Shown here: positions 1 to 12,743 of the stretch, in pieces
How positions within the stretch are numbered: the stretch's first letter is position 1
Layout: each line of letters begins with the position of its first letter
From: a virus
Taxonomy: Duplodnaviria > Heunggongvirae > Uroviricota > Caudoviricetes
Strand: one strand, 5' to 3'
DNA length: 12,743 bases
Virus record (IMG/VR): IMGVR_UViG_2740892230_000006
Position numbers and translations under genes: made by a program
The notes under the pieces: model-generated
Database searches by the model: none
What the model was told of the DNA's origin: nothing
The model's input: the letters and a program-made list of their open reading frames with translations, nothing else

Positions 1-905
1 CCGATGAGGAAGAGACGCTGTTACGTGTGGATGCGGCGATCAACAAAAAATACCGCCATGCAGACGGAACCGAAATGACTATTTCCCGTGTCTGCTGGGA
101 CATCGGGGGGATCGATGGCGAAATCGTTTATCAGAGGTCAAAAAAACACGGTGTTTTCCGGGTGCTGCCGGNNNNNNNNNNGCAGCGAAACCGTTTTGAG
201 ATGTATGTCTGGGGATGGGCACCGGGAGAGGAAGCCTTTCTGGTGGATAAAATCATCATTATGGGGCGTCCCGATGAGGAAGAGACGCTGTTACGTGTGG
301 ATGCTGCGATCAACAAAAAATATCGCCATGCGGATGGCACCGAAATGACCATTTCCCGTGTCTGCTGGGACACCGGGGGGATCGATGGTGAAATTGTTTA
401 TCAGAGATCAAAAAAACACGGTGTTTTCCGGGTGCTGCCGGTAAAAGGCGCGTCTGTCTATGGCAAGCCGGTGATCACCATGCCGAAAACCCGCAATCAG
501 CGGGGCGTGTATCTGTGTGAAGTGGGGACGGACACCGCAAAAGAAATTCTCTATGCCCGTATGAAAGCCGATCCCACGCCTGCGGATGAAGCCACGTCGT
601 ATGCCATCCGTTTTCCTGATGATCCGGAGATTTTTTCGCAGACAGAGGCGCAGCAACTGGTGGCGGAAGAGCTTGTGGAGAAGTGGGAAAAAGGAAAGAT
701 GCGTCTGCTGTGGGATAACAAAAAGCGGCGTAACGAAGCGCTGGACTGCCTGGTGTATGCCTACGCGGCATTACGTGTGTCCGTGCAACGCTGGCAGCTT
801 GATCTGGCTGTACTGGCAAAATCCCGGGAAGAAGAGACGACCCGGCCAACCCTGAAAGAACTGGCAGCGAAGCTGTCCGGAGGAGTGAATGGTTACAGTC
901 GCTGA
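1..905 (+). CDS. A: Terminase large subunit, C-terminal portion (5'-truncated at window edge); reading frame is open from position 3; positions 1-171 are a near-duplicate of 271-441 across a 10-N gap
   Basis: Translation (...RPDEEETLLRVDAAINKKYRHADGTEMTISRVCWDTGGIDGEIVYQRSKKHGVFRVLPVKGASVYGKPV...KKRRNEALDCLVYAYAALRVSVQRWQLDL...) matches from memory the C-terminus of lambda gpA (...RICWDTGGID...SKKHGLFRVIPIKGASVYGKPV...KKRRNEALDC...RWQLDL). Position immediately upstream of W and portal. Stop TGA at 903-905. Confidence 0.9.
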   Translation, partial: DEEETLLRVDAAINKKYRHADGTEMTISRVCWDIGGIDGEIVYQRSKKHGVFRVLPXXXXQRNRFEMYVWGWAPGEEAFLVDKIIIMGRPDEEETLLRVDAAINKKYRHADGTEMTISRVCWDTGGIDGEIVYQRSKKHGVFRVLPVKGASVYGKPVITMPKTRNQRGVYLCEVGTDTAKEILYARMKADPTPADEATSYAIRFPDDPEIFSQTEAQQLVAEELVEKWEKGKMRLLWDNKKRRNEALDCLVYAYAALRVSVQRWQLDLAVLAKSREEETTRPTLKELAAKLSGGVNGYSR

Positions 906-1095
906 ACTGCAGGCGCTGCGTCAGGCGCGCCTTGATTTATTAACCGGTAAACGGGTGGTGTCTGTCCAGAAAGATGGTCGCAGAATTGAATATACGGCGG
1001 CTTCTCTGGATGAGCTTAACCGGGCGATCAATGATGCGGAGTCGGTACTGGGGACAACCCGGCGTCGCCGTCGTCCGCTGGGAGTGAGGTTATGA
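889..1095 (+). CDS. W: Head-tail joining / head completion protein (gpW-like)
   Basis: 68-aa product MVTVAELQALRQARLDLLTGKRVVSVQKDGRRIEYTAASLDELNRAINDAESVLG...RRRRRP resembles lambda gpW (…[23 protein letters not shown]…) in size and motif. ATG at 889 is preceded by GGAGGAG and overlaps the terminase 3' end; its stop overlaps the portal start as ATGA (1092-1095). Confidence 0.85.
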   Translation: MVTVAELQALRQARLDLLTGKRVVSVQKDGRRIEYTAASLDELNRAINDAESVLGTTRRRRRPLGVRL

Positions 1096-2861
1096 AACGA
1101 ACGCCTGTCCTGATTGATGTGAACGGCGTTCCGCTTCGTGAGAGTCTCAGCTACAACGGGGGCGGCGCAGGATTTGGCGGGCAAATGGCGGAGTGGTTGC
1201 CACCGGCGCAGAGTGCCGATGCGGCCCTGCTGCCCGCGTTGCGTCTGGGGAATGCCCGGGCAGATGATCTGGTGCGCAATAACGGAATAGCGGCCAATGC
1301 GGTGGCACTGCATAAGGATCACATTGTCGGGCATATGTTTCTTATCAGCTACCGTCCGAACTGGCGCTGGCTGGGGATGCGGGAGACCGCAGCAAAAAGC
1401 TTTGTCGATGAGGTGGAGGCGGCCTGGTCGGAATACGCCGAAGGGATGTCTGGCGAGATCGACGTGGAAGGAAAACGCACGTTCACGGAATTTATCCGTG
1501 AAGGTGTGGGCGTTCATGCGTTTAACGGCGAAATCTTTGTGCAGCCGGTCTGGGATACGGAAACCACGCAGTTATTCCGTACGCGTTTTAAAGCCGTGAG
1601 TCCGAAACGGGTGGACACGCCAGGACACGGTATGGGGAACCGTTTTCTGCGGGCCGGTGTGGAGGTCGATCGATATGGCCGTGCCGTCGCGTACCATATT
1701 TGTGAGGATGATTTTCCGTTCTCTGGTAGTGGACGATGGGAACGGATCCCGCGTGAACTTCNNNNNNNNNNGGTGGAGGTCGATCGATATGGCCGTGCCG
1801 TTGCGTACCATATCTGTGAGGATGATTTTCCGTTCTCCGGGAGTGGACGATGGGAACGGATCCCGCGTGAACTTCCCACCGGGCGTCCGGCCATGCTGCA
1901 TATTTTCGAGCCGGTGGAGGACGGGCAGACCCGTGGGGCTAATCAGTTTTACAGCGTCATGGAACGGCTGAAGATGCTGGATTCCCTGCAGGCAACACAG
2001 CTTCAGTCGGCCATTGTGAAAGCCATGTATGCAGCGACGATTGAAAGTGAACTTGATACCGAAAAGGCCTTTGAATATATCGCCGGCGCGCCACAGGAGC
2101 AGAAGGATAATCCGCTTATTAATATTCTGGAGAAGTTCTCCAGCTGGTATGACACGAATAGCGTGACGCTGGGCGGAGTCAAAATTCCGCACCTTTTCCC
2201 TGGTGATGATCTGAAACTACAGACTGCGCAGGATTCAGACAATGGATTTTCGGCGCTTGAACAGGCGCTGCTGCGGTATATCGCCGCCGGTCTTGGCGTT
2301 TCCTACGAACAGTTGTCCCGTGATTACTCGAAGGTCAGTTATTCAAGTGCCAGGGCCTCTGCCAATGAGTCGTGGCGCTATTTTATGGGGCGGCNNNNNN
2401 NNNNCTCAAGTGCCCGCGCCTCCGCCAATGAGTCGTGGCGCTATTTTATGGGGCGGCGAAAATTTATTGCGGCCCGGCTGGCCACGCAGATGTTTTCCTG
2501 CTGGCTGGAAGAGGCACTTCTTCGGGGGATTATCCGTCCGCCACGGGCGCGTTTTGATTTTTATCAGGCGCGATCAGCCTGGTCACGGGCAGAGTGGATT
2601 GGTGCCGGAAGAATGGCCATTGACGGGCTCAAGGAGGTTCAGGAATCGGTGATGCGCATTGAGGCCGGACTGAGCACGTATGAGAAAGAGCTGGCGCTGA
2701 TGGGCGAGGATTATCAGGACATTTTCCGCCAGCAGGTCAGGGAATCTGCAGAGCGGCAAAAAGCCGGACTCTCACGTCCGGTGTGGATAGCGCAGGCGTA
2801 TCAGCAGCAGATAGCGGAGAGTCGCAGGCCGGAAGAGGAGACAACACCCCGTGAGACGTAA
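1092..2861 (+). CDS. B: Portal protein (gpB-like); apparent length is inflated by two scaffold-gap duplications (N at 1762-1771 and 2395-2404)
   Basis: Translation contains lambda gpB hallmarks recalled from memory: GNARADDLVRNNG, HAFNGEIFVQPVWDT, SPKR, HIFEPVEDGQTRGANQFYSVME, LQATQLQSAIVKAMYAATIESELDT, LQTAQDSDNGFSALEQALLRYIAAGLGVSYEQLSRDYSKVSYSSARASANESW, WIGAGRMAIDGLKEVQESVMRIEAGLSTYEKE. Stop TAA at 2859-2861. Confidence 0.92.
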   Translation: MKRTPVLIDVNGVPLRESLSYNGGGAGFGGQMAEWLPPAQSADAALLPALRLGNARADDLVRNNGIAANAVALHKDHIVGHMFLISYRPNWRWLGMRETAAKSFVDEVEAAWSEYAEGMSGEIDVEGKRTFTEFIREGVGVHAFNGEIFVQPVWDTETTQLFRTRFKAVSPKRVDTPGHGMGNRFLRAGVEVDRYGRAVAYHICEDDFPFSGSGRWERIPRELXXXXVEVDRYGRAVAYHICEDDFPFSGSGRWERIPRELPTGRPAMLHIFEPVEDGQTRGANQFYSVMERLKMLDSLQATQLQSAIVKAMYAATIESELDTEKAFEYIAGAPQEQKDNPLINILEKFSSWYDTNSVTLGGVKIPHLFPGDDLKLQTAQDSDNGFSALEQALLRYIAAGLGVSYEQLSRDYSKVSYSSARASANESWRYFMGRXXXXSSARASANESWRYFMGRRKFIAARLATQMFSCWLEEALLRGIIRPPRARFDFYQARSAWSRAEWIGAGRMAIDGLKEVQESVMRIEAGLSTYEKELALMGEDYQDIFRQQVRESAERQKAGLSRPVWIAQAYQQQIAESRRPEEETTPRET

Positions 2862-4617
2862 TCTTTCACACATTATTGCCGCGGCATTCAATGAACCGCT
2901 GCTTCTGGAGCCCGCCTATGCGCGGGTTTTCTTTTGCGCGCTCGGGCGCGAGATGGGGGCAGCAAGTCTTTCGGTACCACAGCAGCAGGTACAGCTTGAT
3001 GCTCCCGGAATGCTGGCTGAAACGGACGAGTACATGGCCGGAGGTAAACGACCGGCCCGTGTTTACCGGGTGGTGAACGGTATTGCTGTACTGCCGGTGA
3101 CCGGCACGCTGGTGCACCGGCTGGGGGGTATGCGGCCATTTTCCGGAATGACAGGCTATGACGGCATTGTCGCCTGTCTTCAGCAGGCAATGGCGGATAG
3201 CCAGGTGCGGGGCGTACTGCTGGACATTGACAGTCCGGGCGGGCAGGCCGCCGGCGCGTTTGACTGCGCTGACATGATTTACCGCCTCCGTCAGCAGAAG
3301 CCGGTCTGGGCACTGTGCAATGACACGGCCTGTTCTGCAGCCATGCTGCTGGCGTCGGCCTGCTCCCGACGGCTGGTTACCCAGACATCCCGTATCGGCT
3401 CCATTGGCGTGATGATGAGCCATGTCAGCTATGCCGGTCATCTGGCGCAGGCCGGTGTGGATATCACGCTGATTTACTCAGGGGCGCACAAGGTGGATGG
3501 CAATCAGTTTGAAGCCTTACCGGCAGAGGTTCGCCAGGACATGCAGCAGCGCATTGATGCGGCGCGCCGGATGTTTGCCGAAAAAGTGGCCATGTTTACC
3601 GGTCTGTCTGTTGATGCCGTCACGGGAACAGAGGCCGCCGTTTTTGAAGGTCAGTCCGGCATTGATGCCGGGCTGGCGGATGAATTAGTCAATGCGTCGG
3701 ATGCCATCAGTGTGATGGCCACGGCGCTGAACAGTAATGTCAGAGGAGGCACTATGCCGCAATTAACTGCAACGGAAGCCGCCGCGCAGGAGAACCAGCG
3801 AGTGATGGGGATCCTGACATGCCAGGAAGCGAAAGGACGTGAACAGCTTGCCACGATGCTGGCAGGACAACAGGGCATGAGCGTTGAACAGGCCCGGGCG
3901 ATTCTGGCCGCGGCGGCACCGCAGCAGCCGGTGGCATCCACGCAGAGTGAAGCCGATCGCATTATGGCGTGTGAAGAAGCGAACGGTCGTGAACAACTGG
4001 CGGCAACGCTGGCGGCGATGCCGGAGATGACGGTGGAAAAAGCCCGCCCGATCCTGGCTGCTTCACCGCAGGCGGATGCCGGACCCTCACTCCGTGATCA
4101 GATCATGGCACTGGATGAGGCAAAAGGGGCTGAGGCGCAGGCTGAACAGCTGGCTGCCTGCCCGGGAATGACTGTGGAGAGCGCCCGGGCTGTGCTGGCT
4201 GCGGGATCAGGTAAGNNNNNNNNNNTTGGCTGCCTCACCGCAGGCGAATGCCGGGCCCTCACTTCGTGATCAGATCATGGCCCTGGATGAGGCAAAAGGG
4301 GCAGAAGCGCAGGCTGAAAAACTGGCGGCCTGCCCGGGAATGACCGTGGAGAACGCCCGGGCTGTGCTGGCTGCGGGATCAGGTAAGGCAGAACCGGTCT
4401 CTGCATCCACAACCGCCCTGTTTGAACGCATCATGGCGAACCATTCACCGGCAGCGGTACAGGGTGGCGTGCCACAGACGTCAGCAGACGGTGATGCGGA
4501 CGTGAANNNNNNNNNNATTTCATGGCGAATCATTCACCGGCAGCGGTGCGGGGTGGCGTGTCACAGACGTCAGCAGACGGTGATGCGGACGTGAAAATGC
4601 TCATGGCCATGCCATGA
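2851..4617 (+). CDS. C: Head maturation protease / scaffold fusion (gpC-like, S49/SppA-family serine peptidase N-terminal domain with a Nu3-like scaffold C-terminal region); GTG start; frame apparently broken by scaffold gaps at 4216-4225 and 4507-4516
   Basis: N-terminus ...AAFNEPLLLEPAYARVFFCAL... then ...VVNGIAVLPVTGTLV...MTGYDGIVACLQQA...LLDIDSPGGQAAGAFDCADMIYRLRQQKPVWALCNDTACSAAMLLASACSRRLVTQTSRIGSIGVMMSH...ITLIYSGAHKVDGNQF...AVFEGQSGIDAGLADELVN matches the lambda gpC pattern recalled from memory. GTG at 2851 overlaps the portal stop. The terminal ...SADGDADVKMLMAMP is followed by TGA at 4615-4617. Confidence 0.85.
3754..4617 (+). CDS. nu3: Nu3-like scaffolding protein, internal in-frame start nested in the 3' part of the C gene
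   Basis: ATG at 3754-3756 is in the C frame and preceded by AGAGGAGG (3743-3750) at ideal spacing. The downstream sequence MPQLTATEAAAQENQRVMGILTCQEAKGREQ... parallels lambda Nu3 (…ENSRIMGILNCEEAHGREEQ…), which in lambda is made from an internal start within C. Confidence 0.55.
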
Positions 4618-4653
4618 AGTCAGTGCTGACCATCAACAGGAGGTTTTTACAAT

Positions 4654-5291
4654 ATGGTAACGAAAACCATCACTGAACAGCGTGCGGAAGTACGTATTTT
4701 TGCCGGTAATGATCCGGCTCATACCGCCACAGGCAGCAGCGGGATTTCNNNNNNNNNNTATGAGGTTTTAACAAAATGGTGACGAAAACCATCACTGAAC
4801 AGCGTGCGGAAGTACNNNNNNNNNNCTCGGCAACACCGGCACTGACGCCCCTGATGCTGGATGAAGCCAGCGGGAAACTGGTGGTCTGGGACGGACAGAA
4901 AGCCGGTAGTGCGGTTGGCATACTGGNNNNNNNNNNTTCTGCAACACCGGCTCTGACGCCCCTGATGCTGGATGAAGCCACCGGGAAACTGGTGGTCTGG
5001 GATGGACAGAAAGCCGGTAGTGCGGTTGGCATACTGGNNNNNNNNNNGTGCCCTGAGTCACGCGGCGCTGCCGTAACACGTTATCAGGCCACCGCGGTGG
5101 CCTGACTGATTTCTGAATGAAAGGAACTGNNNNNNNNNNTACTGCCGCTTGAAGGCACAGAGACGGTACTGACCTATTACAAGTCGGGGACCTTTGCGAC
5201 GGAGGCAATCCGCTGGCCTGACAGTGTGGATGAACACAAAAAGGCAAATGCCTTTGCCGGCACAGCCCTGAGTCACGCGGCTCTGCCGTAA
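4654..5291 (+). CDS. D: Head decoration protein (gpD-like); the scaffold interleaves variant fragments across five 10-N gaps (4749-5139), so the true gene is shorter (about 110 codons)
   Basis: AGGAGG at 4638-4643 then ATG at 4654. Fragments translate to [32 protein letters not shown] / [33 protein letters not shown] / ...[44 protein letters not shown], matching lambda gpD motifs (…[37 protein letters not shown]…GAAVGIL…TFYKSGTF…AFAGTA…). Stop TAA at 5289-5291. Confidence 0.8.
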
Positions 5292-5299
5292 CACGTTAT

Positions 5300-5319
5300 C
5301 AGGCCACCATGGTGGCCTG
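5300..5319 (+). repeat. Perfect 20-bp palindrome CAGGCCACCATGGTGGCCTG in the D-E intergenic region; a variant copy CAGGCCACCGCGGTGGCCTG lies at 5085-5104
   Basis: Read directly from the sequence. Both variant copies are perfectly self-complementary, and the two differences are at symmetric central positions (GC to AT). Confidence 0.45.
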
Positions 5320-5348
5320 ACTGATTTCTGAATGAAAGGAACTGATTT

Positions 5349-6531
5349 ATGGGATTGTTTACGACCCGCCAGTTACTCGGTTATACCGAACAAAAAGTGA
5401 AATTTCGTGCGCTGTTTCTGGAGCTGTTTTTCCGCCGTACGGTGAATTTCCATACCGAAGAGGTGATGCTGGACAAAATTACCGGAAAAACGCCGGTGGC
5501 GGCCTATGTCTCCCCGGTTGTTGAAGGAAAAGTGCTGCGTCATCGCGGTGGTGAAACCCGCGTGTTACGTCCGGGCTACGTCAAGCCGAAACACGAATTT
5601 AATTACCAGCAGGCGGTTGAGCGTCTTCCCGGTGAAGATCCGGCTCAACTGAACGACCCGGCCTACCGTCGTCTGCGTATCATCACCGATAACCTCAAAC
5701 AGGAAGAGCATGCCATTGTCCAGGTGGAAGAAATGCAGGCGGTGAATGCCGTGCTGTATGGCAAATACACCATGGAAGGGGATCAGTTTGATACTGTCGA
5801 GGTGGATTTTGGACGCTCTGAAGGAAATAACATTGAGCAGGCCGACGGTAAAAAATGGTCTGAGCAGGACCGTGATACGTTTGATCCGACGCATGATATT
5901 GACCTCTACTGCGATCAGGCCAGCGGTCTTGTGAATATTGCCATTATGGACGGTACTGTCTGGCGTCTGCTGAATGGTTTTAAGCTGTTCCNNNNNNNNN
6001 NCCTTGTGAATATCGCCATTATGGACGGTACGGTCTGGCGTCTGCTGAATGGCTTTAAGCTGTTCCNNNNNNNNNNCCTGGGGGCGGTGGTGTCTTTCAA
6101 AGGGTATTACGGCGATCTGGCCATTGTGGTGGCGANNNNNNNNNNGCGAAAAACTGGATACCCGTCGCGGCTCAAATTCACAACTCGAAACGGCAGTGAA
6201 AGATCTGGGCGCAGTGGTGTCCTTCAAGGGGTATTACGGCGATCTGGCCATTGTGGTGGCGAAAACGTCTTATGTGGCAGAGGACGGTACCGAAAAACGT
6301 TATCTGCCGGAGGGCATGCTGGTGCTGGGGAATACGGCGGCAGAGGGGATTCGTTGCTATGGTGCCATTAAGGATGCACAGGCGTTGTCTGAAGGAGTGG
6401 TGGCTTCTTCCCGTTACCCGAAACACTGGCTGACCGTGGGCGATCCGTCCTGTGAATTCACCATGACGCAGTCCGCTCCGCTGATGGTGCTGCCGGATCC
6501 GGATGAGTTTGTGGTGGTGCAGGTGAAATAA
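5349..6531 (+). CDS. E: Major capsid protein (gpE-like); frame interrupted by scaffold gaps at 5992-6001, 6067-6076 and 6136-6145 with duplicated flanks
   Basis: MGLFTTRQLLGYTEQKVKFRALFLELFFRR...GGETRVLRPGYVKPKHEFNYQQAVERLPGEDPAQLNDPAYRRLRIITDNLKQEEHAIVQVEEMQAVNAVLYGKYTMEGDQFDTVEVDFGRSEGNNIEQ...KLDTRRGSNSQLETAVKDLGAVVSFKGYYGDLAIVV...LPEGMLVLGNT...RYPKHWLTVGDPSCEFTMTQSAPLMVLPDPDEFVVVQVK* matches lambda gpE along its whole length from memory. Stop TAA at 6529-6531. Confidence 0.92.
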
Positions 6532-6538
6532 TCCGTGA

Positions 6539-6568
6539 GCGGGGGCGAAATGCCCCCGTGTCTTTTTT
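6539..6568 (+). terminator. Candidate intrinsic terminator/attenuator hairpin downstream of the major capsid gene
   Basis: GC-rich stem GGGGGC (6541-6546) / GCCCCC (6552-6557), loop GAAAT, optionally extended by one G-C pair and a G-U wobble, immediately followed by TCTTTTTT (6561-6568). It lies between the E stop (6531) and the FI start (6583). Confidence 0.5.
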
Positions 6569-6661
6569 CACAGGGGGCTGATATGGCAACAAAAGAAGAA
6601 AATCAGAAACGTCTTCGTCAACTGGCTGGCCTGCTGGGGCGCGNNNNNNNNNNAGGCTGAG

Positions 6662-7045
6662 ATGGCAACAAAAGAAGAAAATCTGAATCGTCTTCGTCAA
6701 CTGGCTGGCCTGCTGGGGCGCGAGGCGGATATGTCGGGGAGTGCTGCGGATATTGCTCAACGTGTGTCTGAGTGGGAAGAGGAGCTTGCTGTTTCCCCGG
6801 AGGGCATTATGCACTCTGATGAGAGCGGGGCTGATCAAAATCACACAGACGATGGTGAGCAGTTGAACAACACGGATGCTCCGGATGATGTTAAAGCCGT
6901 CCGGGTACGGAAGTGCCTGCAAGTAATGGGGTATTGCCCGGAGACAGGTCGTCCCGTTGAGCTGGCGTTACGGGGTATGCGTGTTCTGGTGCCATCATCA
7001 CTGGCAACGGCCATGATACAGCACGGAACGGCTGAATATGCGTGA
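6662..7045 (+). CDS. FI: DNA-packaging protein FI-like; complete copy carried on a short variant contig bounded by N-runs at 6644-6653 and 7072-7081
   Basis: 127-aa acidic product MATKEENLNRLRQLAGLLGREADMSGSAADIAQRVSEWEEEL... with C-terminal ...GRPVELALRGMRVLVPSSLATAMIQHGTAEYA, the same architecture as lambda gpFI. Sits between E and FII. A truncated first start of the same gene occurs at 6583-6643. Confidence 0.8.
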   Translation: MATKEENLNRLRQLAGLLGREADMSGSAADIAQRVSEWEEELAVSPEGIMHSDESGADQNHTDDGEQLNNTDAPDDVKAVRVRKCLQVMGYCPETGRPVELALRGMRVLVPSSLATAMIQHGTAEYA

Positions 7046-7081
7046 TTTTCAGAATGCCTTTGATGCTGCCCNNNNNNNNNN

Positions 7082-7370
7082 GCAACGTGTGTCTGAGTGG
7101 GAAGAGGAGCTTGCTGCTTCCCGGGAGGGCATTATGCCTGGTGATGAGAGCGGGCCTGAGCAAAATCACACAGACGATGGTGAGCAGTTGCACAACACTG
7201 ATGCTACGGATGATGTTAAAGCGGTCCGTGTGCGGAAATGCCTGCATGTGATGGGGTATTGCCCGGAGACAGGCCGTCCCGTTGAACTGACGTACCGGGG
7301 CATGCGTGTTCTGGTGCCATCACCACTGGCGACAGCCATGATACAGCACGGAACGGCTGAGCATGCGTGA
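7082..7370 (+). CDS. FI: 3' portion of a second FI allele, belonging with the main contig and probably continuous with the FI start at 6583 that is interrupted by the scaffold gap
   Basis: Translates in frame to ...QRVSEWEEELAASREGIMPGDESGPEQNHTDDGEQLHNTDATDDVKAVRVRKCLHVMGYCPETGRPVELTYRGMRVLVPSPLATAMIQHGTAEHA*, a diverged paralogue of 6662-7045. The stop overlaps the FII start as ATGCGTGA at 7363-7370. Confidence 0.55.
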
Positions 7371-7716
7371 TTTTCAGAATGCCTTTGATGCTGCCCTCGC
7401 CGGGGTAGACAGTACGATCGTTGAAGTGATGGGGCTCTGTGCGCAGTTCACCTCGGGGGCACAGTGTGGCAGCGAAGTTCAGGGGGTTTTTGACGATCCG
7501 GAGTCGCTGGGGTTTGCCGGTGGCGGGGTCCGTATTGAAGGAAGCAGCCCGTCATTATTTGTGCGGACGGATACGGTTCGTGCCGTGCGGCGTGGTGACA
7601 CGCTGACCATTAATGGTGAGATATTCTGGGTGGATCGTGTTTCTCCGGATGACGGGGGCAGCTGTTATCTCTGGCTCAACCGTGGGCAACCACCCGCAGT
7701 TAACCGGCGACGATAA
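7363..7716 (+). CDS. FII: Head completion / head-tail connector protein FII-like
   Basis: MRDFQNAFDAA...GVFDDPES...GGGVRIEGSSPSLFVRTDTVRAVRRGDTLTINGEIFWVDRVSPDDGGSCYLWLNRGQPPAVNRRR matches lambda gpFII (…VFDDPEN…VEGSSPSLFVRTDEVRQLRRGDTLTI…FWVDRVSPDDGGSCHLWL…PPAVNRRR) from memory. Stop TAA at 7714-7716. Confidence 0.9.
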   Translation: MRDFQNAFDAALAGVDSTIVEVMGLCAQFTSGAQCGSEVQGVFDDPESLGFAGGGVRIEGSSPSLFVRTDTVRAVRRGDTLTINGEIFWVDRVSPDDGGSCYLWLNRGQPPAVNRRR

Positions 7717-7731
7717 ACGCAGGGTGAAATT

Positions 7732-8265
7732 ATGGCGATAAAAGGGCTTGATCAGGCGATTGACAATCTGAGCCGGGTTCGTAAAAACGCCATTCCGGCG
7801 GCTTCAGCAATGGCCATTAACCGCGTGGCCACAACGGCGATTAATCAGTCTTCATCACAGGTTGCCCGGGAGACAAAGGTTCGCCGGAAACTGGTTAAGG
7901 AACGGTCCAGACTGAAACGGGCGACGGTCAGAAATCCGAATGCCAGAATTATCGTTAACCGCGGTGATCTCCCTGTGATTAAGCTGGGGATCAGGATGCC
8001 GGGGCGTCGCCCGGACAGCATACTTAAAGCCGGTCAGCATCGGTATCAGCGGGCATTTATTCAGCGATTAAAAAATGGTCGCTGGCATGTCATGCAGCGT
8101 GTGGCCGGGAAAAACCGTTACCCCATTGATGTGGTGAAAATCCCGATGGCGGTGCCGCTTACCACGGCGTTTAAACAGAATATTGAACGGATACGGCGTG
8201 AACGTCTTCCGAAAGAGCTGGGCTATGCGCTGCAGCATCAACTGAGAATGGTAATAAAGCGATGA
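7732..8265 (+). CDS. Z: Tail completion protein Z-like
   Basis: MAIKGLDQAIDNLSRVRKNAIPAASAMAINRVATTAINQSSSQVARETKVRRKLVKERSRLKRATV...[69 protein letters not shown] is near-identical to lambda gpZ as recalled. Its stop overlaps the U start as ATGA (8262-8265). Confidence 0.93.
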   Translation: MAIKGLDQAIDNLSRVRKNAIPAASAMAINRVATTAINQSSSQVARETKVRRKLVKERSRLKRATVRNPNARIIVNRGDLPVIKLGIRMPGRRPDSILKAGQHRYQRAFIQRLKNGRWHVMQRVAGKNRYPIDVVKIPMAVPLTTAFKQNIERIRRERLPKELGYALQHQLRMVIKR

Positions 8266-8657
8266 AACATACTGAACTCCGTGCAGCCGTACTGGATGCA
8301 CTGGAGAAGCATGACACCGGGGCGACGCTTTTTGATGGTCGCCCCGCTGTTTTTGATGAGGCGGATTTTCCGGCAGTTGCCGTTTATCTCACCGGCGCTG
8401 AATACACGGGCGAAGAGCTGGACAGCGATACCTGGCAGGCGGAGCTGCATATTGAAGTTTTCCTGCCTGCTCAGGTACCGGATTCAGAGCTGGATGCGTG
8501 GATGGAGTCCCGGATTTATCCGGTGATGAGCGATGTCCCGGCACTGTCAGATTTGATCACCAGTATGGTGGCCAGTGGCTATGACTACCGGCGCGACGAT
8601 GATGCGGGCCTGTGGAGTTCAGCCGATCTGACTTATGTCATTACCTATGAAATGTGA
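8262..8657 (+). CDS. U: Tail tube terminator protein U-like
   Basis: [91 protein letters not shown]...[27 protein letters not shown] is essentially the lambda gpU sequence as recalled. Confidence 0.93.
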
Positions 8658-8664
8658 GGACGAT

Positions 8665-9597
8665 ATGCCTGTACCAAATCCAATAATGCCGGTGAAAGGG
8701 GCCGGGACCACACTGTGGGTTTATAAGGGGAACGGTGACCCTTATGCGAACCCGCTTTCAGACGTTGACTGGTCGCGTCTGGCTAAAGTTAAAGACCTGA
8801 CGCCCGGCGAACTGACCGCTGAGTCCTATGACGACAGCTATCTCGATGATGAAGATGCGGACTGGACTGCGACCGGGCAGGGGCAGAAATCTGCCGGAGA
8901 TACCAGCTTCACGCTGGCGTGGATGCCCGGAGAGCAGGGGCAGCAGGCGCTGCTGGCGTGGTTTAATGAAGGGGATACCCGTGCCTATAAAATCCGCTTC
9001 CCGAACGGCACGGTCGATGTGTTCCGCGGCTGGGTCAGCAGTATCGGTAAGGCGGTGACGGCGAAGGAAGTGATCACCCGTACGGTGAAGGTCACCAATG
9101 TGGGCCGTCCGTCAATGGCAGAAGATCGCAGTACGGTAACAGCGGCAACCGGTATGACCGTGACGCCTGCCAGCTCCTCGGTGGTGAAAGGGCAGGGCAC
9201 CACGCTGACCGTGGCATTCCAGCCGGAGGGCGCAACTGACAAGAGCTTCCGTGCGGTGTCAGNNNNNNNNNNCACGGTGAAAGTCACCAACGTGGGACGT
9301 CCGTCGATGGCAGAAGATCGCAGCACGGTAACAGCGGCAACCGGCATGACCGTGACGCCTGCCAGCACTTCGGTGGTGAAAGGGCAGAGCACCACGCTGA
9401 CCGTGGCATTCCAGCCGGAAGGCGCAACCGACAAGAGTTTCCGTGCGGTGTCTGCGGATAAAACAAAAGCCACCGTGTCGGTCAGTGGTATGACCATCAC
9501 CGTGAAAGGTGTTGCTGCAGGCAAGGTCAACATTCCGGTTGTATCCGGTAATGGTGAACTTGCTGTGGTTGCAGAAATCACCGTCACCGACAGTTAA
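8665..9597 (+). CDS. V: Major tail tube protein V-like with C-terminal Ig-like (Big_2-type) domain; the ORF-track start at 8635 is probably an upstream in-frame extension; a scaffold gap at 9263-9272 duplicates part of the Ig-like region
   Basis: ATG at 8665 preceded by GAGGA (8656-8660). [136 protein letters not shown]... matches lambda gpV from memory (which starts MPVPNPTMPVKG). The C-terminal ...[11 protein letters not shown]...[70 protein letters not shown]... is the Ig-like domain. Stop TAA at 9595-9597. Confidence 0.92.
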
Positions 9598-9612
9598 TCC
9601 GGAGAGTCAGCG

Positions 9613-10035
9613 ATGTTCCTGAAAACCGAATCATTTGAATATAACGGTGTGAGCGTCACGCTTTCTGAACTGTCAGCCCTGCAGCGAATTGAGCATCTCG
9701 CCCAGCTGAAACGACAGGCAGAACAGGCGGGATCCAGTCTCAATCGACAGGTGAGCGTGGAAGATCTCGTCAGAACCGGTGCTTTTCTGGTGGCGATGTC
9801 CCTGTGGCATAGCCATCCGCAGAAGACAAAGATGCCGTCCATGAATGAAGCCGTTAAACAAATTGAGCAGGAAGTGCTTACCACCTGGCCCACAGAGGCA
9901 ATTGCTCAGGCTGAAAATGTGGTAATGCGTCTGTCCGGTATGTCTGAGTTTGTTGTGAATGATGCACCTGAACAGGCAGATGACGCCGGGCCAGCAGAGC
10001 CTGTTTCTGCGGGAAAGTGTTCGACGGTGAGCTGA
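9613..10035 (+). CDS. G: Tail assembly chaperone G-like
   Basis: MFLKTESFEYNGVSVTLSELSALQRIEHLAQLKRQAEQ...VRTGAFLVAMSLWHSHPQKTKMPSMNEAVKQIEQEVLTTWPTEAIAQAENVVMRLSGMSEFVVNDAPEQADDAGPAEPVSAGKCSTVS* is near-identical to lambda gpG as recalled. GGAGAG lies upstream of ATG 9613. Confidence 0.93.
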   Translation: MFLKTESFEYNGVSVTLSELSALQRIEHLAQLKRQAEQAGSSLNRQVSVEDLVRTGAFLVAMSLWHSHPQKTKMPSMNEAVKQIEQEVLTTWPTEAIAQAENVVMRLSGMSEFVVNDAPEQADDAGPAEPVSAGKCSTVS

Positions 10036-10451
10036 GTTTTGCCCTGAAACTGGCGCGTGAGATGGGGCGACCTGACTGGCGCGCCATGCTTGCCGGGATG
10101 TCATCCACGGAGTATGCCGACTGGCACCGCTTTTACAGTACCCATTATTTTCATGATGTTCTGCTGGATATGCACTTTTCCGGGCTGACGTACACCGTAC
10201 TCAGCCTGTTTTTCAGCGATCCGGATATGCATCCGCTGGATTTCAGTCTGCTGAACCGGCGCGAGGCTGACGAAGAGCCTGAAGATGATGTGCTGATGCA
10301 GAAAGCGGCAGGGCTTGCCGGAGGCGTCCGCTTTGGCCCGGACGGGAATGAAGTTATCCCCGCTTCCCCGGATGTGGCGGACATGACGGAGGATGACGTA
10401 ATGCTGATGACAGTATCAGAAGGGATCGCAGGAGGAGTCCGGTATGGCTGA
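9613..10451 (+). CDS. G-T: Tail assembly chaperone G-T fusion, made by -1 frameshift at 10011-10017
   Basis: The T-frame ORF (10017-10451) has no independent ribosome-binding site or plausible start and is entered only from G by the -1 shift. Its product ...FDGELSFALKLAREMGRPDWRAMLAGMSSTEYADWHRFYSTHYFHDVLLDMHFSGLTYTVLSLFFSDPDMHPLDFSLLNRREADEEPEDDVLMQKAAGLAGGVRFGPDGNEVIPASPDVADMTEDDVMLMTVSEGIAGGVRYG* matches lambda gpT as recalled. Confidence 0.85.
10011..10017 (+). promoter_or_regulatory. Programmed -1 ribosomal frameshift slippery heptamer G GGA AAG (G to G-T)
   Basis: In the G frame the codons are GCG GGA AAG TGT (...SAGKCSTVS*). A -1 slip on GGGAAAG re-reads GGG AAA GTG TTC GAC GGT GAG CTG... 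giving ...GKVFDGELSFALKLAREMGRPDW..., the T reading frame. This is the heptamer and position of the classic lambda G-T frameshift. Confidence 0.85.
10017..10451 (+). CDS. T: T-domain reading frame of the tail assembly chaperone (expressed only as the G-T frameshift product)
   Basis: Same as the G-T fusion. Stop TGA at 10449-10451 overlaps the H start ATG at 10444-10446. Confidence 0.8.
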   Translation: MFDGELSFALKLAREMGRPDWRAMLAGMSSTEYADWHRFYSTHYFHDVLLDMHFSGLTYTVLSLFFSDPDMHPLDFSLLNRREADEEPEDDVLMQKAAGLAGGVRFGPDGNEVIPASPDVADMTEDDVMLMTVSEGIAGGVRYG

Positions 10452-12743
10452 ACCGGTAGGCGATCTGGTCGTTGATTTGAGTCTGGATGCGGCCAGATTT
10501 GACGAGCAGATGGCCAGAGTCAGGCGTCATTTTTCCGGTACGGAAAGTGATGCGAAAAAAACAGCGGCAGTCGTTGAACAGTCGATGAACCGGCAGGCGC
10601 TGGCTGCACAGAAAGCGGGAATTTCCGTCGGGCAGTATAAAGCCGCCATGCGTATGCTGCCTGCGCAGTTCACTGACGTGGCCACGCAGCTTGCAGGCGG
10701 GCAAAGTCCGTGGCTGATCCTGCTGCAACAGGGGGGTCAGGTGAAGGACTCCTTCGGCGGGATGATCCCCATGTTCAGGGGGCTTGCCGGTGCGATCACC
10801 CTGCCGATGGTGGGGGCTACCTCGCTGGCGGTGGCGACCGGAGCGCTGGCGTATGCCTGGTATCAGGGCAACTCAACCCTGTCCGATTTCAACAAAACGC
10901 TGGTCCTTTCCGGCAATCAGGCGGGACTGACGGCAGATCGTATGCTGGTCCTGTCCAGAGCCGGGCAGGCGGCAGGGCTGACGTTTAACCAGACCAGCGA
11001 GTCACTCAGCGCACTGGTTAAGGCGGGGGTAAGCGGTGAGGCTCAGATTGCGTCCATCAGCCAGAGTGTGGCGCGTTTCTCCTCTGCATCCGGCGTGGAG
11101 GTGGACAAGGTCGCTGAAGCCTTCGGGAAGCTGACCACAGACCCGACGTCGGGGCTGACGGCGATGGCACGCCAGTTCCATAACGTGACGGCGGAGCAGA
11201 TTGCGTATGTTGCTCAGTTGCAGCGTTCCGGCGATGAAGCCGGGGCATTGCAGGCGGCGAACGAGGCCGCAACGAAAGGGTTTGATGACCAGACCCGACG
11301 CTTGAAAGAGAACATGGGCACGCTGGAAACCTGGGCAGACAGGACAGCACGGGCATTCAAATCCATGTGGGATGCGGTGCTGGATATTGGTCGTCCTGAT
11401 ACCGCGCAGGAGATGCTGATTAAGGCAGAGGCCGCGTTTAAGAAAGCGGACGATATCTGGAATCTGCGCAAGGATGATTATTTTGTTAACGATGAAGCGC
11501 GGGCGCGTTACTGGGATGATCGTGAAAAGGCCCGTCTTGCGCTTGAAGCCGCCCGAAAGAAGGCTGAGCAGCAGACTCAACAGGACAAAAATGCGCAGCA
11601 GCAGAGCGATACCGAAGCGTCACGGCTGAAATACACCGAAGAGGCGCAGAAGGCTTACGAACGCCTGCAGACGCCGCTGGAGAAATATACCGCCCGTCAG
11701 GAAGAACTGAATAAGGCCCTGAAAGACGGGAAAATCCTGCAGGCGGATTACAACACGCTGATGGCGGCGGCGAAAAAGGATTATGAAGCGACGCTGAAAA
11801 AGCCGAAACAGTCCGGCGTGAAGGTGTCTGCGGGCGATCGTCAGGAAGACAGTGATCATGCTGCCCTGCTGACGCTTCAGGCAGAACTCCGGACGCTGGA
11901 GAAGCATGCCGGAGCAAATGAGAAAATCAGCCAGCAGCGCCGGGATTTGTGGAAGGCGGAGAGTCAGTTCGCGGTACTGGAGGAGGCGGCGCAACGTCGC
12001 CAGCTGTCTGCACAGGAGAAATCCCTGCTGGCGCATAAAGATGAGACGCTGGAGTACAAACGCCAGCTGGCTGCACTTGGCGACAAGGTTACGTATCAGG
12101 AGCGCCTGAACGCGCTGGCGCAGCAGGCGGATAAATTCGCACAGCAGCAACGGGCAAAACGGGCCGCCATTGATGCGAAAAGCCGGGGGCTGACTGACCG
12201 GCAGGCAGAACGGGAAGCCACGGAACAGCGCCTGAAGGAACAGTATGGCGATAATCCGCTGGCGCTGAATAACATCATGTCAGAGCAGAAAAAGACCTGG
12301 GCGGCTGAAGACCAGCTTCGCGGGAACTGGATGGCAGGCCTGAAGTCCGGCTGGAGTGAGTGGGAAGAGAGCGCCACGGACAGTATGTCGCAGGTAAAAA
12401 GTGCAGCCACGCAGACCTTTGACGGTATTGCACAGAATATGGCGGCGATGCTGACCGGCAGTGAGCAGAACTGGCGCAGCTTCACCCGTTCCGTGCTGTC
12501 CATGATGACAGAAATTCTGCTTAAGCAGGCAATGGTGGGGATTGTCGGGAGTATCGGCAGCGCTATTGGCGGGGCTGTTGGTGGCGGCGCATCCGCGTCA
12601 GGCGGTACAGCCATTCAGGCCGCTGCGGCGAAATTCCATTTTGCAACCGGAGGATTTACGGGAACCGGCGGCAAATATGAGCCAGCGGGGATTGTTCACC
12701 GTGGTGAGTTTGTCTTCACGAAGGAGGCAACCAGCCGGATTGG
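10444..12743 (+). CDS. H: Tail tape measure protein H-like, 3'-truncated at window end (about 766 codons present)
   Basis: MAEPVGDLVVDLSLDAARFDEQMARVRRHFSGTESDAKKTAAVVEQSMNRQALAAQKAGISVGQYKAAMRMLPAQFTDVATQLAGGQSPWLILLQQGGQVKDSFGGMIPMF... running to ...GGKYEPAGIVHRGEFVFTKEATSRIG at the window edge with no stop. It is near-identical to lambda gpH as recalled. Absent from the ORF track only because no stop codon falls in the window. Confidence 0.93.
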   Translation, partial: MAEPVGDLVVDLSLDAARFDEQMARVRRHFSGTESDAKKTAAVVEQSMNRQALAAQKAGISVGQYKAAMRMLPAQFTDVATQLAGGQSPWLILLQQGGQVKDSFGGMIPMFRGLAGAITLPMVGATSLAVATGALAYAWYQGNSTLSDFNKTLVLSGNQAGLTADRMLVLSRAGQAAGLTFNQTSESLSALVKAGVSGEAQIASISQSVARFSSASGVEVDKVAEAFGKLTTDPTSGLTAMARQFHNVTAEQIAYVAQLQRSGDEAGALQAANEAATKGFDDQTRRLKENMGTLETWADRTARAFKSMWDAVLDIGRPDTAQEMLIKAEAAFKKADDIWNLRKDDYFVNDEARARYWDDREKARLALEAARKKAEQQTQQDKNAQQQSDTEASRLKYTEEAQKAYERLQTPLEKYTARQEELNKALKDGKILQADYNTLMAAAKKDYEATLKKPKQSGVKVSAGDRQEDSDHAALLTLQAELRTLEKHAGANEKISQQRRDLWKAESQFAVLEEAAQRRQLSAQEKSLLAHKDETLEYKRQLAALGDKVTYQERLNALAQQADKFAQQQRAKRAAIDAKSRGLTDRQAEREATEQRLKEQYGDNPLALNNIMSEQKKTWAAEDQLRGNWMAGLKSGWSEWEESATDSMSQVKSAATQTFDGIAQNMAAMLTGSEQNWRSFTRSVLSMMTEILLKQAMVGIVGSIGSAIGGAVGGGASASGGTAIQAAAAKFHFATGGFTGTGGKYEPAGIVHRGEFVFTKEATSRI

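What the first reader, a model, noticed from the sequence alone, without database searches (positions are those of the whole stretch)
172..9272. Sixteen 10-N spacers flanked by near-identical overlapping sequence: unmerged contig joins from co-resident related prophages or a mixed population
N-runs of exactly 10 occur at 172-181, 1762-1771, 2395-2404, 4216-4225, 4507-4516, 4749-4758, 4816-4825, 4927-4936, 5038-5047, 5130-5139, 5992-6001, 6067-6076, 6136-6145, 6644-6653, 7072-7081 and 9263-9272. In each case sequence before the gap recurs just after it with a few substitutions (for example 1-171 versus 271-441). In the terminase copies about nine of ten differences are synonymous third-position changes and one is nonsynonymous (I to T), pointing to real diverged homologues under purifying selection rather than sequencing error. 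Some inserted pieces have different upstream sequence (upstream of the D start at 4654 versus 4777; upstream of the FI start at 6583 versus 6662), so at least two related prophage copies or haplotypes are interleaved. The practical consequence is that gene lengths, apparent internal duplications and frame breaks in A, B, C, D, E, FI and V cannot be taken at face value.
Basis: seen in the sequence. Interest (0 to 1): 0.55.

Follow-up and report, generated by a model that had tools for sequence, protein, structure and literature searches.

The report
Assembly artefact: interleaved prophage alleles
The sixteen 10-N runs and the near-duplicate sequence around them are a short-read assembler artefact, in which two very similar lambda/phage-21-like prophage gene clusters were collapsed and their differing stretches written one after another; it is not a biological repeat, so it matters only for data quality.

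Summary
There are exactly 16 runs of 10 N at the stated coordinates, splitting the window into 17 segments. Thirteen pairs of stretches are 91-96% identical.

The decisive result is a k-mer signature:
- No 35-mer is shared between any two segments, yet 11 pairs share 34-mers.
- In 11 of 13 pairs the first base after the gap is the first mismatch.
- In those same pairs the left copy ends exactly 34 identical bases after the last mismatch.

This is what unmerged de Bruijn-graph bubble branches (k = 35) look like when scaffolded with a minimal N buffer, as Velvet/Pebble does.

Removing the Ns (160) and the duplicates (1,499) leaves 11,084 bp. That is colinear with an 11,083-bp terminase-to-tape-measure (A-to-H) module in a closed E. 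coli prophage.

Within the region phased (C to FI, nine bubbles), one allele at each bubble matches an 'X' prophage type (CP148326-like). The other matches a 'Y' type (CP070048-like). Phased alleles differ from their own type at 2 of 989 sites and from the other type at 77 of 989.

Both types sit at distant loci in closed E. coli chromosomes. They also occur in one isolate whose two prophage contigs reproduce six of the bubble intervals to the base.

Several contigs switch haplotype, so gene lengths here are unreliable. Co-resident prophages are more likely than a mixed culture, but this is not proven. Interest is low.

The parts
172..9272 (.). Sixteen N-runs of exactly 10 at 172-181, 1762-1771, 2395-2404, 4216-4225, 4507-4516, 4749-4758, 4816-4825, 4927-4936, 5038-5047, 5130-5139, 5992-6001, 6067-6076, 6136-6145, 6644-6653, 7072-7081 and 9263-9272. 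They are scaffold buffers, not sequence.
   Evidence: A fixed length of 10 despite negative true distances (overlaps of 53-315 bp) marks a minimum-gap placeholder.
1..171 (+). S1: stand-alone bubble branch in terminase gene A and the alternative allele of 271-441 (10 differences). It carries 34 identical bases on both sides of its variant block, so it is probably the first node of the scaffold, written with its k-1 prefix.
   Evidence: It is identical to L002 and L007.
182..1761 (+). S2: long contig covering the A 3' part, W and the B 5' part. The stretch 271-441 is the partner of S1. The last 104 bases (1658-1761) are the partner of the start of S3.
   Evidence: It ends 34 bases after the last mismatch with S3.
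1772..2394 (+). S3: contig inside portal gene B. Its first base is the first mismatch against S2. Its last 53 bases are the partner of the start of S4.
   Evidence: (the 104-mer 1772-1875 is exact in 15 IMG/VR prophage contigs).
2405..4215 (+). S4: contig covering the B 3' part and most of C (protease/scaffold). It is mainly X-type. Its last 162 bases are the X allele of bubble 4054-4215 / 4226-4387.
4226..4506 (+). S5: chimeric contig in C. The stretch 4226-4387 is Y-type and 4428-4506 is X-type.
   Evidence: No closed E. coli genome matches S5 at 99% or better (best 97.8%), although each half has exact matches. Its Y-to-X junction is absent from three public collections.
4517..4748 (+). S6: chimeric contig covering the C end, the C-D spacer and the D start (4654). 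The stretch 4517-4595 is Y-type and 4637-4693 is X-type.
4759..4815 (+). S7: 57-base stand-alone Y-type branch, the alternative of 4637-4693 (D start at 4776).
   Evidence: It is reproduced base for base, with the same ends, as the predicted k=35 branch between L019 and L104.
4826..4926 (+). S8: 101-base X-like branch in D. On the reference it abuts the end of S6 with zero overlap.
4937..5037 (+). S9: 101-base Y-type branch in D and the allele of S8 (5 differences). Together they form a textbook bubble: S6 -> {S8|S9} -> S11.
5048..5129 (+). S10: 82-base stand-alone X-type branch (D end and D-E spacer hairpin), the alternative of 5263-5344 in S11.
   Evidence: It is reproduced exactly by the L019/L104 prediction.
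5140..5991 (+). S11: contig covering the D 3' part and E (major capsid, start at 5349). It is X-type except for a Y-type patch at 5263-5344. It abuts S8/S9 with zero overlap.
6002..6066 (+). S12: 65-base Y-type branch in E, the alternative of 5927-5991. It ends 34 bases after its third mismatch rather than its fourth, which is a possible trace of a third haplotype.
6077..6135 (+). S13: 59-base X-type branch in E, the alternative of 6204-6262 in S14.
   Evidence: It is reproduced exactly by the L019/L104 prediction and by the L165/L166 prediction.
6146..6643 (+). S14: chimeric contig covering the E 3' part and the FI start (6583). It is Y-type up to about 6500 and X-type in 6575-6643. It abuts S11/S12 with zero overlap.
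   Evidence: The best closed-genome match is 99.0%, with none exact.
6654..7071 (+). S15: pure Y-type contig holding a complete FI (6662-7045). The stretch 6757-7071 is the partner of 7082-7396 (29 differences).
   Evidence: There are 475 closed-genome records at 99% or better, many at 100%.
7082..9262 (+). S16: contig covering the X-type FI 3' part, FII (7363-7716), Z (7732-8265), U (8262-8657) and the V 5' part (start about 8665). Its last 182 bases are the partner of the start of S17. It ends 34 bases after mismatch 148, not after the last mismatch.
9273..12743 (+). S17: contig covering the V 3' part, G (9613-10035), T (to 10451, with the slippery GGGAAAG at 10011-10017) and tape-measure gene H (from about 10444, cut by the window end).
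   Evidence: (the 100-mer 9273-9372 is exact in 31 IMG/VR contigs).
1092..2861 (+). Apparent portal ORF of 589 aa. The true length is 530 aa. It is inflated in frame by two inserted blocks: 104+10 = 114 nt and 53+10 = 63 nt.
   Evidence: One search compared with the annotations.
8665..9597 (+). Apparent major tail protein V, lengthened by 64 codons (182+10 = 192 nt, in frame). The true length is 246 aa.
   Evidence: One search compared.
5349..6531 (+). Major capsid gene E, split into ORFs 5349-6371 and 6049-6531. The 154 inserted bases (10+65+10+59+10) shift the frame. C (2851-4594) is broken in the same way by 172 inserted bases.
   Evidence: One search compared.

Best explanation
The window is a scaffold (probably from its very first base) produced by a de Bruijn-graph short-read assembler run at k = 35.

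The sequenced DNA held at least two closely related lambda/phage-21-like head-tail gene clusters. One, called 'X' here, resembles the prophage of E. coli CP148326 (and IMG/VR contig L019). The other, 'Y', resembles the prophage of CP070048 (and L104).

Where the two copies are identical for 35 bases or more, the graph collapsed them into one path. Where they differ, each copy formed its own branch.

The scaffolder saw from read pairs that both branches belong at the same place. It found no path from one to the other, because they are parallel rather than serial. It therefore wrote them one after the other with a minimal buffer of 10 N.

Each appended node is written without its k-1 prefix. It therefore starts at the first differing base, and the preceding copy stops 34 bases after the last differing base.

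The result is an 11.08-kb locus inflated to 12.74 kb, with haplotype-switching contigs, false in-frame 'duplications' (B, V) and false frameshifts (C, D, E).

What is shown and what is inferred:
- Shown: the k = 35 signature, the colinearity, and the two natural haplotypes.
- Inferred: Velvet/Pebble as the program. The scaffolding rule is documented in PMC2793427. The 10-N minimum and the prefix-less node export are from my memory of Velvet's code.
- Inferred: the two copies sit in one genome rather than in two strains.
For: 1; 16 N-runs, all of length 10.

2; in all 12 junctions or pairs where a right-hand piece can be scored, its first base is a mismatch. In 11 of 13 pairs the left copy ends exactly 34 identical bases after the last mismatch. 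The other two end exactly 34 bases after an earlier mismatch (31+34 = 65 and 148+34 = 182). S1 also has 34 identical bases before its first mismatch.

3; no 35-mer is shared between any two segments on either strand, while 11 pairs share 34-mers.

4. S6|S8, S9|S11 and S11,S12|S14 abut on the reference with zero overlap and zero gap.

5; 12743 - 160 - 1499 = 11084, against 11083 bp in L002.

6; across nine bubbles (989 bases, window 4054-7396) the phased X alleles differ from L002 at 2 sites and from L007 at 77. The phased Y alleles show the reverse.

7; both alleles of 12 of the 13 pairs have 2 to 66 exact matches among independent prophage loci. The alleles of the last pair (9081-9262 / 9273-9454) come within 2 and 1 differences.

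8. IMG isolate genome 2534681835 carries X (L019) and Y (L104) on two contigs. The k = 35 bubbles computed between them reproduce six of the window's bubble intervals to the base. They also reproduce S7, S10 and S13 exactly.

9; the closed chromosomes CP039837, CP031916 and CP101302 carry Y-type FI (100%) and X-type FI (99.0-99.3%) at loci more than 1 Mb apart.

10; 4,103 of 5,426 complete E. coli genomes hold this module, with a median of 2 and up to 9 places per genome.

11. [quoted passage not shown]

12. (PMC7175801): homogeneous lambdoid prophages are a known cause of broken short-read E. coli assemblies.
Against: The source assembly was not found. Assembler, k value, read coverage and sample purity are therefore unverified.

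Literature searches did not confirm the 10-N minimum.

Velvet's default bubble popping should have merged several of these short branches, so non-default settings or a different program are possible.

Two junctions (S11/S12 and S16/S17) do not fit a strict two-haplotype model.

In the 'single-copy' stretches the window is X-like at 5345-5926 and Y-like at 6263-6574, with no alternative allele present. Either the source copies are truly identical there or alleles were discarded; this cannot be told from the window.

The bubbles in A and B (S1/S2, S2/S3, S3/S4) and the V bubble (S16/S17) sort less cleanly into X and Y than the nine C-FI bubbles do.
Confidence: 0.8

Rival explanations
1. The same assembler artefact, but the two haplotypes come from two strains in a mixed or contaminated culture, or from a metagenome. 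Each strain would carry one prophage, rather than one cell carrying two.
For: The window alone cannot distinguish the two cases, and the k-mer signature would be identical. One close relative of S16 is a metagenome-derived contig (L123).
Against: Co-residence is the norm. The median is 2 places per closed genome. Three closed chromosomes carry both the X and Y FI types. One isolate genome's two contigs reproduce six bubbles exactly. The chimeric junction was not found in JGI metagenome contigs.
Confidence: 0.15
2. Contigs from any assembler were ordered against a reference phage afterwards and concatenated with 10-N linkers, by a reference-guided scaffolder or a submission script. The duplication would then be ordinary overlap of contig ends.
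For: 10-N linkers are a common convention. The pieces are in nearly perfect reference order.
Against: Exported de Bruijn contigs keep their k-1 overlaps. Here, neighbours that abut do so with zero overlap. Every appended piece starts exactly at a variant base, while only the first piece has a 34-base prefix. This points to concatenation inside the graph. Also, pieces of 57-82 bp would normally be filtered out before any external ordering.
Confidence: 0.05
3. The near-duplicates are genuine tandem partial duplications or a diversity-generating arrangement within one phage genome, and the Ns are merely masked bases.
For: None beyond the appearance of repeats. Some insertions happen to keep the reading frame (B and V).
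Against: The cut-off at exactly 34 shared bases has no biological rationale. After removing the copies, the locus equals the normal 11.08-kb module. None of 1,473 closed-genome records covering at least 80% of the window, nor phage 21, shows such duplications. Three gaps join pieces that are out of order.
Confidence: 0.01
4. The differences are sequencing or consensus errors in a single prophage.
For: None.
Against: Divergence is 4-9% and mostly at synonymous third positions: 61 synonymous against 30 nonsynonymous sites. Both alleles of 12 of the 13 pairs match independent natural sequences exactly.
Confidence: 0.01

Closest known systems
Unresolved de Bruijn-graph bubbles scaffolded by Velvet's Pebble module (Zerbino et al. 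2009, PMC2793427)
   Same: Nodes judged to be neighbours from read pairs, but lacking a connecting path, are merged with a buffer of Ns. The nodes are k-mer-exclusive. The first node carries the k-1 prefix and appended nodes do not. All of this matches.
   Different: The program and the 10-N minimum are not verified for this record. Default Velvet bubble popping would be expected to remove some of these short branches.
Fragmented or collapsed short-read assemblies of poly-lysogenic E. coli (for example the EHEC O157/O55 lambdoid prophage pools; PMC7175801)
   Same: Several near-identical lambdoid prophages in one chromosome break or collapse short-read assemblies. Closed O55:H7 USDA5905 carries both haplotype types seen here.
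   Different: The literature mostly describes contig breaks. Here the alleles were instead stitched into one scaffold, giving false duplications.
Phage 21 / lambda head-tail morphogenesis module (A-W-B-C-D-E-FI-FII-Z-U-V-G-T-H)
   Same: The gene order is the same. Identity is about 96% to phage 21 (OL657228) and 97% to the prophage of E. coli CP148326. Related loci carry the matching Pfam families.
   Different: Nothing biological differs. The sequence as written is a mosaic of at least two copies, and no database record matches the long contigs at better than about 98.7-99.3%.

Membership tests
De Bruijn-graph scaffold artefact (Velvet/Pebble type) | Every k-mer belongs to one node only: no k-mer is shared between pieces, but (k-1)-mers are shared at branch points. 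| tested here: met
   0 pairs share a 35-mer and 11 pairs share a 34-mer.
De Bruijn-graph scaffold artefact (Velvet/Pebble type) | A branch starts at the first variant base and ends k-1 bases after the last variant. | tested here: met
   the first base is a mismatch in 12 of 12 scorable pieces. The tail is exactly 34 in 11 of 13 pairs, and the other two end 34 bases after an earlier mismatch.
De Bruijn-graph scaffold artefact (Velvet/Pebble type) | Fixed minimal N buffer where the estimated distance is zero or negative. | tested here: met
   all 16 runs are 10 N, although true distances are -315 to 0. That 10 is Velvet's minimum comes from memory only; the literature search failed.
De Bruijn-graph scaffold artefact (Velvet/Pebble type) | Removing the redundant branches restores a normal colinear locus. 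| tested here: met
   11,084 bp against 11,083 bp in L002.
De Bruijn-graph scaffold artefact (Velvet/Pebble type) | Read coverage of about 1x on branches and about 2x on collapsed stretches, with read pairs linking both branches to the same flanks. | not testable with these tools
   No reads are available and the source record was not found.
Two co-resident related prophages in one genome | Both alleles are natural sequences that sort into two consistent haplotypes. | tested here: met
   2/989 against 77/989 differences over the nine C-FI bubbles. Both alleles of 12 of 13 pairs have exact matches elsewhere. The A, B and V bubbles sort less cleanly.
Two co-resident related prophages in one genome | Both haplotype types occur together in single closed chromosomes. 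| tested here: met
   CP039837, CP031916 and CP101302. IMG isolate 2534681835.
Two co-resident related prophages in one genome | Both copies are present in the very genome that was sequenced here, rather than in a mixture. | not testable with these tools
   This needs the reads or a long-read assembly of the source.
Lambda/phage-21-like head-tail module | Gene order A-W-B-C-D-E-FI-FII-Z-U-V-G-T-H with high nucleotide identity. | tested here: met
   The G/T slippery heptamer GGGAAAG lies at 10011-10017.
Genuine tandem duplication | Uninterrupted sequence across the junction of the two copies, and presence in related genomes. | tested here: not met
   Every junction is an N-run. No related phage or prophage shows the duplications.

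The most novel reading that the evidence does not exclude
The sequenced cell carries two (possibly three) phage-21-like prophages. Their head modules would be base-identical over kilobase stretches and 4-9% divergent only in short patches. That would be a footprint of recent, patchy gene conversion between co-resident prophages, rather than alleles discarded by the assembler.
Probability: 0.3. Interest if true: 0.2.

Novelty: not a real feature. Interest (0 to 1): 0.07.

Why it matters
The value is practical. Any annotation of this record would report a 589-aa portal, a V protein 64 residues too long, split C, D and E genes, and two FI genes. None of these exist.

The k-1 = 34 test is a quick, read-free way to recognise this artefact in other draft genomes and viral-contig collections. 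It has three parts: no shared 35-mer, a first base that is a mismatch, and a 34-base identical tail.

The long contigs should not be used as a phage haplotype, because several of them switch between two parental sequences.

Tried and rejected
1. Finding the source record. Exact-pattern scans of GTDB genome contigs, IMG/VR and JGI metagenome contigs did not return the window. A pattern spanning an N-run found nothing. A look-up of the FI protein showed it is far too common (23,417 blocks) to identify a source.

2. Literature confirmation that Velvet inserts a minimum of 10 N failed. The original Velvet paper is not held. Only the general Pebble N-buffer rule could be cited.

3. A strict two-haplotype model was rejected for S11/S12 and S16/S17. 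Both end 34 bases after a non-terminal mismatch, which suggests a third copy.

4. The closed O55:H7 pair L165/L166 was tried as a stand-in for the parents. It reproduces only 2 bubble intervals exactly and predicts many more bubbles than are seen. It therefore shows co-residence but is not the source pair.

5. The two central differences in the D-E palindrome were considered as a compensatory pair and rejected, because they fall in the hairpin loop.

Full report
**Observation**

They cut the window into 17 segments, S1 to S17, of 57 to 3,471 bases.

Blast of the segments against each other, followed by an ungapped comparison in register, gives 13 near-duplicate pairs. They are 53-315 bases long, carry 4-29 mismatches and have no indels.

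The statement that sequence before each gap recurs just after it holds literally at 8 gaps. At the 9263 gap the last two bases of S16 fall outside the repeat. At four gaps the partner lies 55-123 bases away, because a short piece is nested in a long one (S1 in S2, S7 in S6, S10 in S11, S13 in S14). At three gaps (4816, 5038, 6067) the flanks do not overlap at all.

The terminase detail is exact: 9 synonymous third-position changes plus one I>T. Over all pairs there are 61 synonymous and 30 nonsynonymous sites, and 66 of 91 coding differences fall at codon position 3.

**What the locus is**

The window aligns colinearly with the A-W-B-C-D-E-FI-FII-Z-U-V-G-T-H morphogenesis module of lambdoid phages:
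- 95.8% identity to phage 21 (OL657228), which is locus L001.
- 97.1% identity to a prophage of E. coli CP148326, which is locus L002.

The module is present in 4,103 of 5,426 complete E. coli genomes. The median is 2 places per genome and the maximum is 9.

On L002 the segments tile positions 3001-14083. Subtracting 160 N and 1,499 duplicated bases from 12,743 leaves 11,084, against 11,083 in L002. Nothing extra is therefore present; the surplus is entirely redundancy.

**The decisive signature**

In all 12 pieces that can be scored, the first base after the gap is a mismatch to its partner. In 11 of 13 pairs the other copy ends exactly 34 identical bases after the last mismatch.

S1, the first piece, also has exactly 34 identical bases before its first mismatch.

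The two exceptions also end exactly 34 bases after a mismatch, just not the last one. S12 ends at 31+34 = 65, and S16 ends at 148+34 = 182.

No 35-mer is shared between any two segments on either strand, while 11 pairs share 34-mers.

Three joins abut on the reference with neither overlap nor gap: S6 to S8/S9, S8/S9 to S11, and S11/S12 to S14. S8 and S9 are two 101-base alleles of the same interval.

This is the anatomy of a compacted de Bruijn graph with k = 35. Each k-mer lives in one node. A branch begins with the first k-mer that contains a variant and ends with the last one. Nodes appended to a growing scaffold contribute only the last base of each k-mer, so they lack the k-1 prefix.

No biological process would produce a cut-off at exactly 34 bases.

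**How the pieces came to sit in one record**

The Pebble paper for Velvet states what happens when two nodes are judged neighbours from read pairs but no path is found. [quoted passage not shown]

Two allelic branches are parallel, so no path leads from one to the other. Both link to the same flanks and both have single-copy coverage, which makes them 'unique' nodes.

From my own recollection of Velvet's code, the buffer has a floor of 10 N when the distance estimate is small or negative, and appended nodes are written without the k-1 prefix. I could not confirm the 10-N floor in the literature. The attribution to Velvet specifically is therefore an inference (about 0.7). The attribution to a k = 35 graph assembler is close to certain.

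**Two natural haplotypes**

Among 166 related loci gathered from closed genomes and IMG/VR, both alleles of 12 of the 13 pairs have exact matches, between 2 and 66 each. The alleles of the last pair come within 1-2 differences.

From C to FI the alleles sort cleanly. One matches L002 / L019 ('X'), and the other matches L007 / L010 / L012 / L104 ('Y').

I phased nine bubbles, 989 bases in all:
- The X path differs from L002 at 2 sites and from L007 at 77.
- The Y path differs from L007 at 2 sites and from L002 at 77.

The differences are therefore real sequence from two diverged homologues, not errors.

The bubbles in A and B (S1/S2, S2/S3, S3/S4) and the V bubble (S16/S17) sort less cleanly into these two types, although both alleles of the A and B bubbles still have exact natural matches.

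**Chimeric contigs**

S5 is Y-type in 4226-4387 and X-type in 4428-4506. S6, S11 and S14 switch likewise.

S15 is pure Y and has 475 closed-genome records at 99% or better, many at 100%. S5, by contrast, has none at 99% or better among 1,875 records (best 97.8%), and S14 has no exact match (best 99.0%).

The Y-to-X junction of S5 is absent from IMG/VR, GTDB representative genomes and JGI metagenome contigs.

These switches are what a graph traversal through collapsed shared nodes produces. A rare natural recombinant cannot be fully excluded.

**Co-resident prophages or a mixture?**

Exact 100-mers of the Y and X FI alleles were searched in IMG/VR. IMG isolate genome 2534681835 carries X on contig _000009 (L019) and Y on contig _000010 (L104).

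I computed k = 35 bubbles between L019 and L104. Six of the window's bubble intervals are reproduced to the base:
- 5047-5099
- 6898-6976
- 7018-7074
- 7354-7435
- 8141-8199
- 8512-8580

Four others are reproduced closely. S7, S10 and S13 are identical in sequence and ends to the predicted branches.

Among closed chromosomes, CP039837 (O55:H7 USDA5905), CP031916 (O45:H2) and CP101302 each hold a 100% Y-type FI region and a 99.0-99.3% X-type FI region at loci more than 1 Mb apart. The two USDA5905 loci are complete, separately annotated prophage modules.

Poly-lysogeny with this module is thus common. Homogeneous lambdoid prophages are a recognised cause of poor short-read E. coli assemblies (PMC7175801).

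I favour co-residence (about 0.8 of the artefact scenarios) over a mixed culture. Only reads or a long-read assembly can decide.

**Loose ends**

The non-terminal 34-base ends of S12 and S16 imply k-mers shared with a path not present here, which hints at a third copy.

In the stretches present only once, the window is X-like at 5345-5926 and Y-like at 6263-6574, with no alternative allele. Either the source copies are identical there (mosaicism or gene conversion) or the assembler popped those bubbles.

S16 has no close relative: the best is 69 differences in 2,181 bases. This too could reflect a popped-bubble consensus.

**Consequences for annotation**
- The portal ORF reads 589 aa instead of 530, because 114 + 63 inserted bases stay in frame.
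- V is 64 codons too long.
- C, D and E are split by insertions that shift the frame.
- FI appears one and a half times.

**Verdict**

The feature is an assembly artefact laid over a well-known phage module. The underlying biology is ordinary, so interest is low. The k-1 signature is a useful diagnostic for the same artefact elsewhere.

Noticed in passing
window 5084-5105 (S10 allele) and 5299-5320 (S11 allele): There is a 22-nt perfect palindrome in the D-E spacer: TCAGGCCACCGCGGTGGCCTGA versus TCAGGCCACCATGGTGGCCTGA. The two alleles differ only at the two central bases, so dyad symmetry is kept. It folds as a 9-bp GC-rich RNA hairpin with a tetraloop (-19.4 and -18.4 kcal/mol, z about -2.5), and the changes lie in the loop.
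   Followed up: partly
window 6757-7071 versus 7082-7396 (FI): The FI bubble is unusually rich in amino-acid changes (17 nonsynonymous against 12 synonymous sites, clustered in the first 130 bases). The bubbles in A, B, E and V are almost entirely synonymous. FI is also where phage 21 diverges most from both haplotypes.
   Followed up: no
window 10011-10017: GGGAAAG lies at the end of G (9613-10035), with the T-frame ORF running 10017-10451. This is the expected lambda-type -1 frameshift site for the G-T tail chaperone.
   Followed up: partly
window 7082-9262 (S16: FII, Z, U, V 5' part): No close relative was found among 166 related loci. The best has 69 differences (L123, a metagenome-derived IMG/VR contig), and L002 has 105-109. 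This may be a genuine mosaic or a consensus of popped bubbles.
   Followed up: no
L119 and L133 (both from IMG/VR contig 2869970738_000006, 45,485 bp): Two separate stored stretches of one contig each hold the exact Y-type FI 100-mer. This could mean two copies on one contig or simply overlapping stored stretches.
   Followed up: no
L002 11785-14345 (CP148326 prophage): The tape-measure gene of the closest closed-genome prophage is annotated as a frameshifted pseudogene, so that reference prophage may itself be defective.
   Followed up: no
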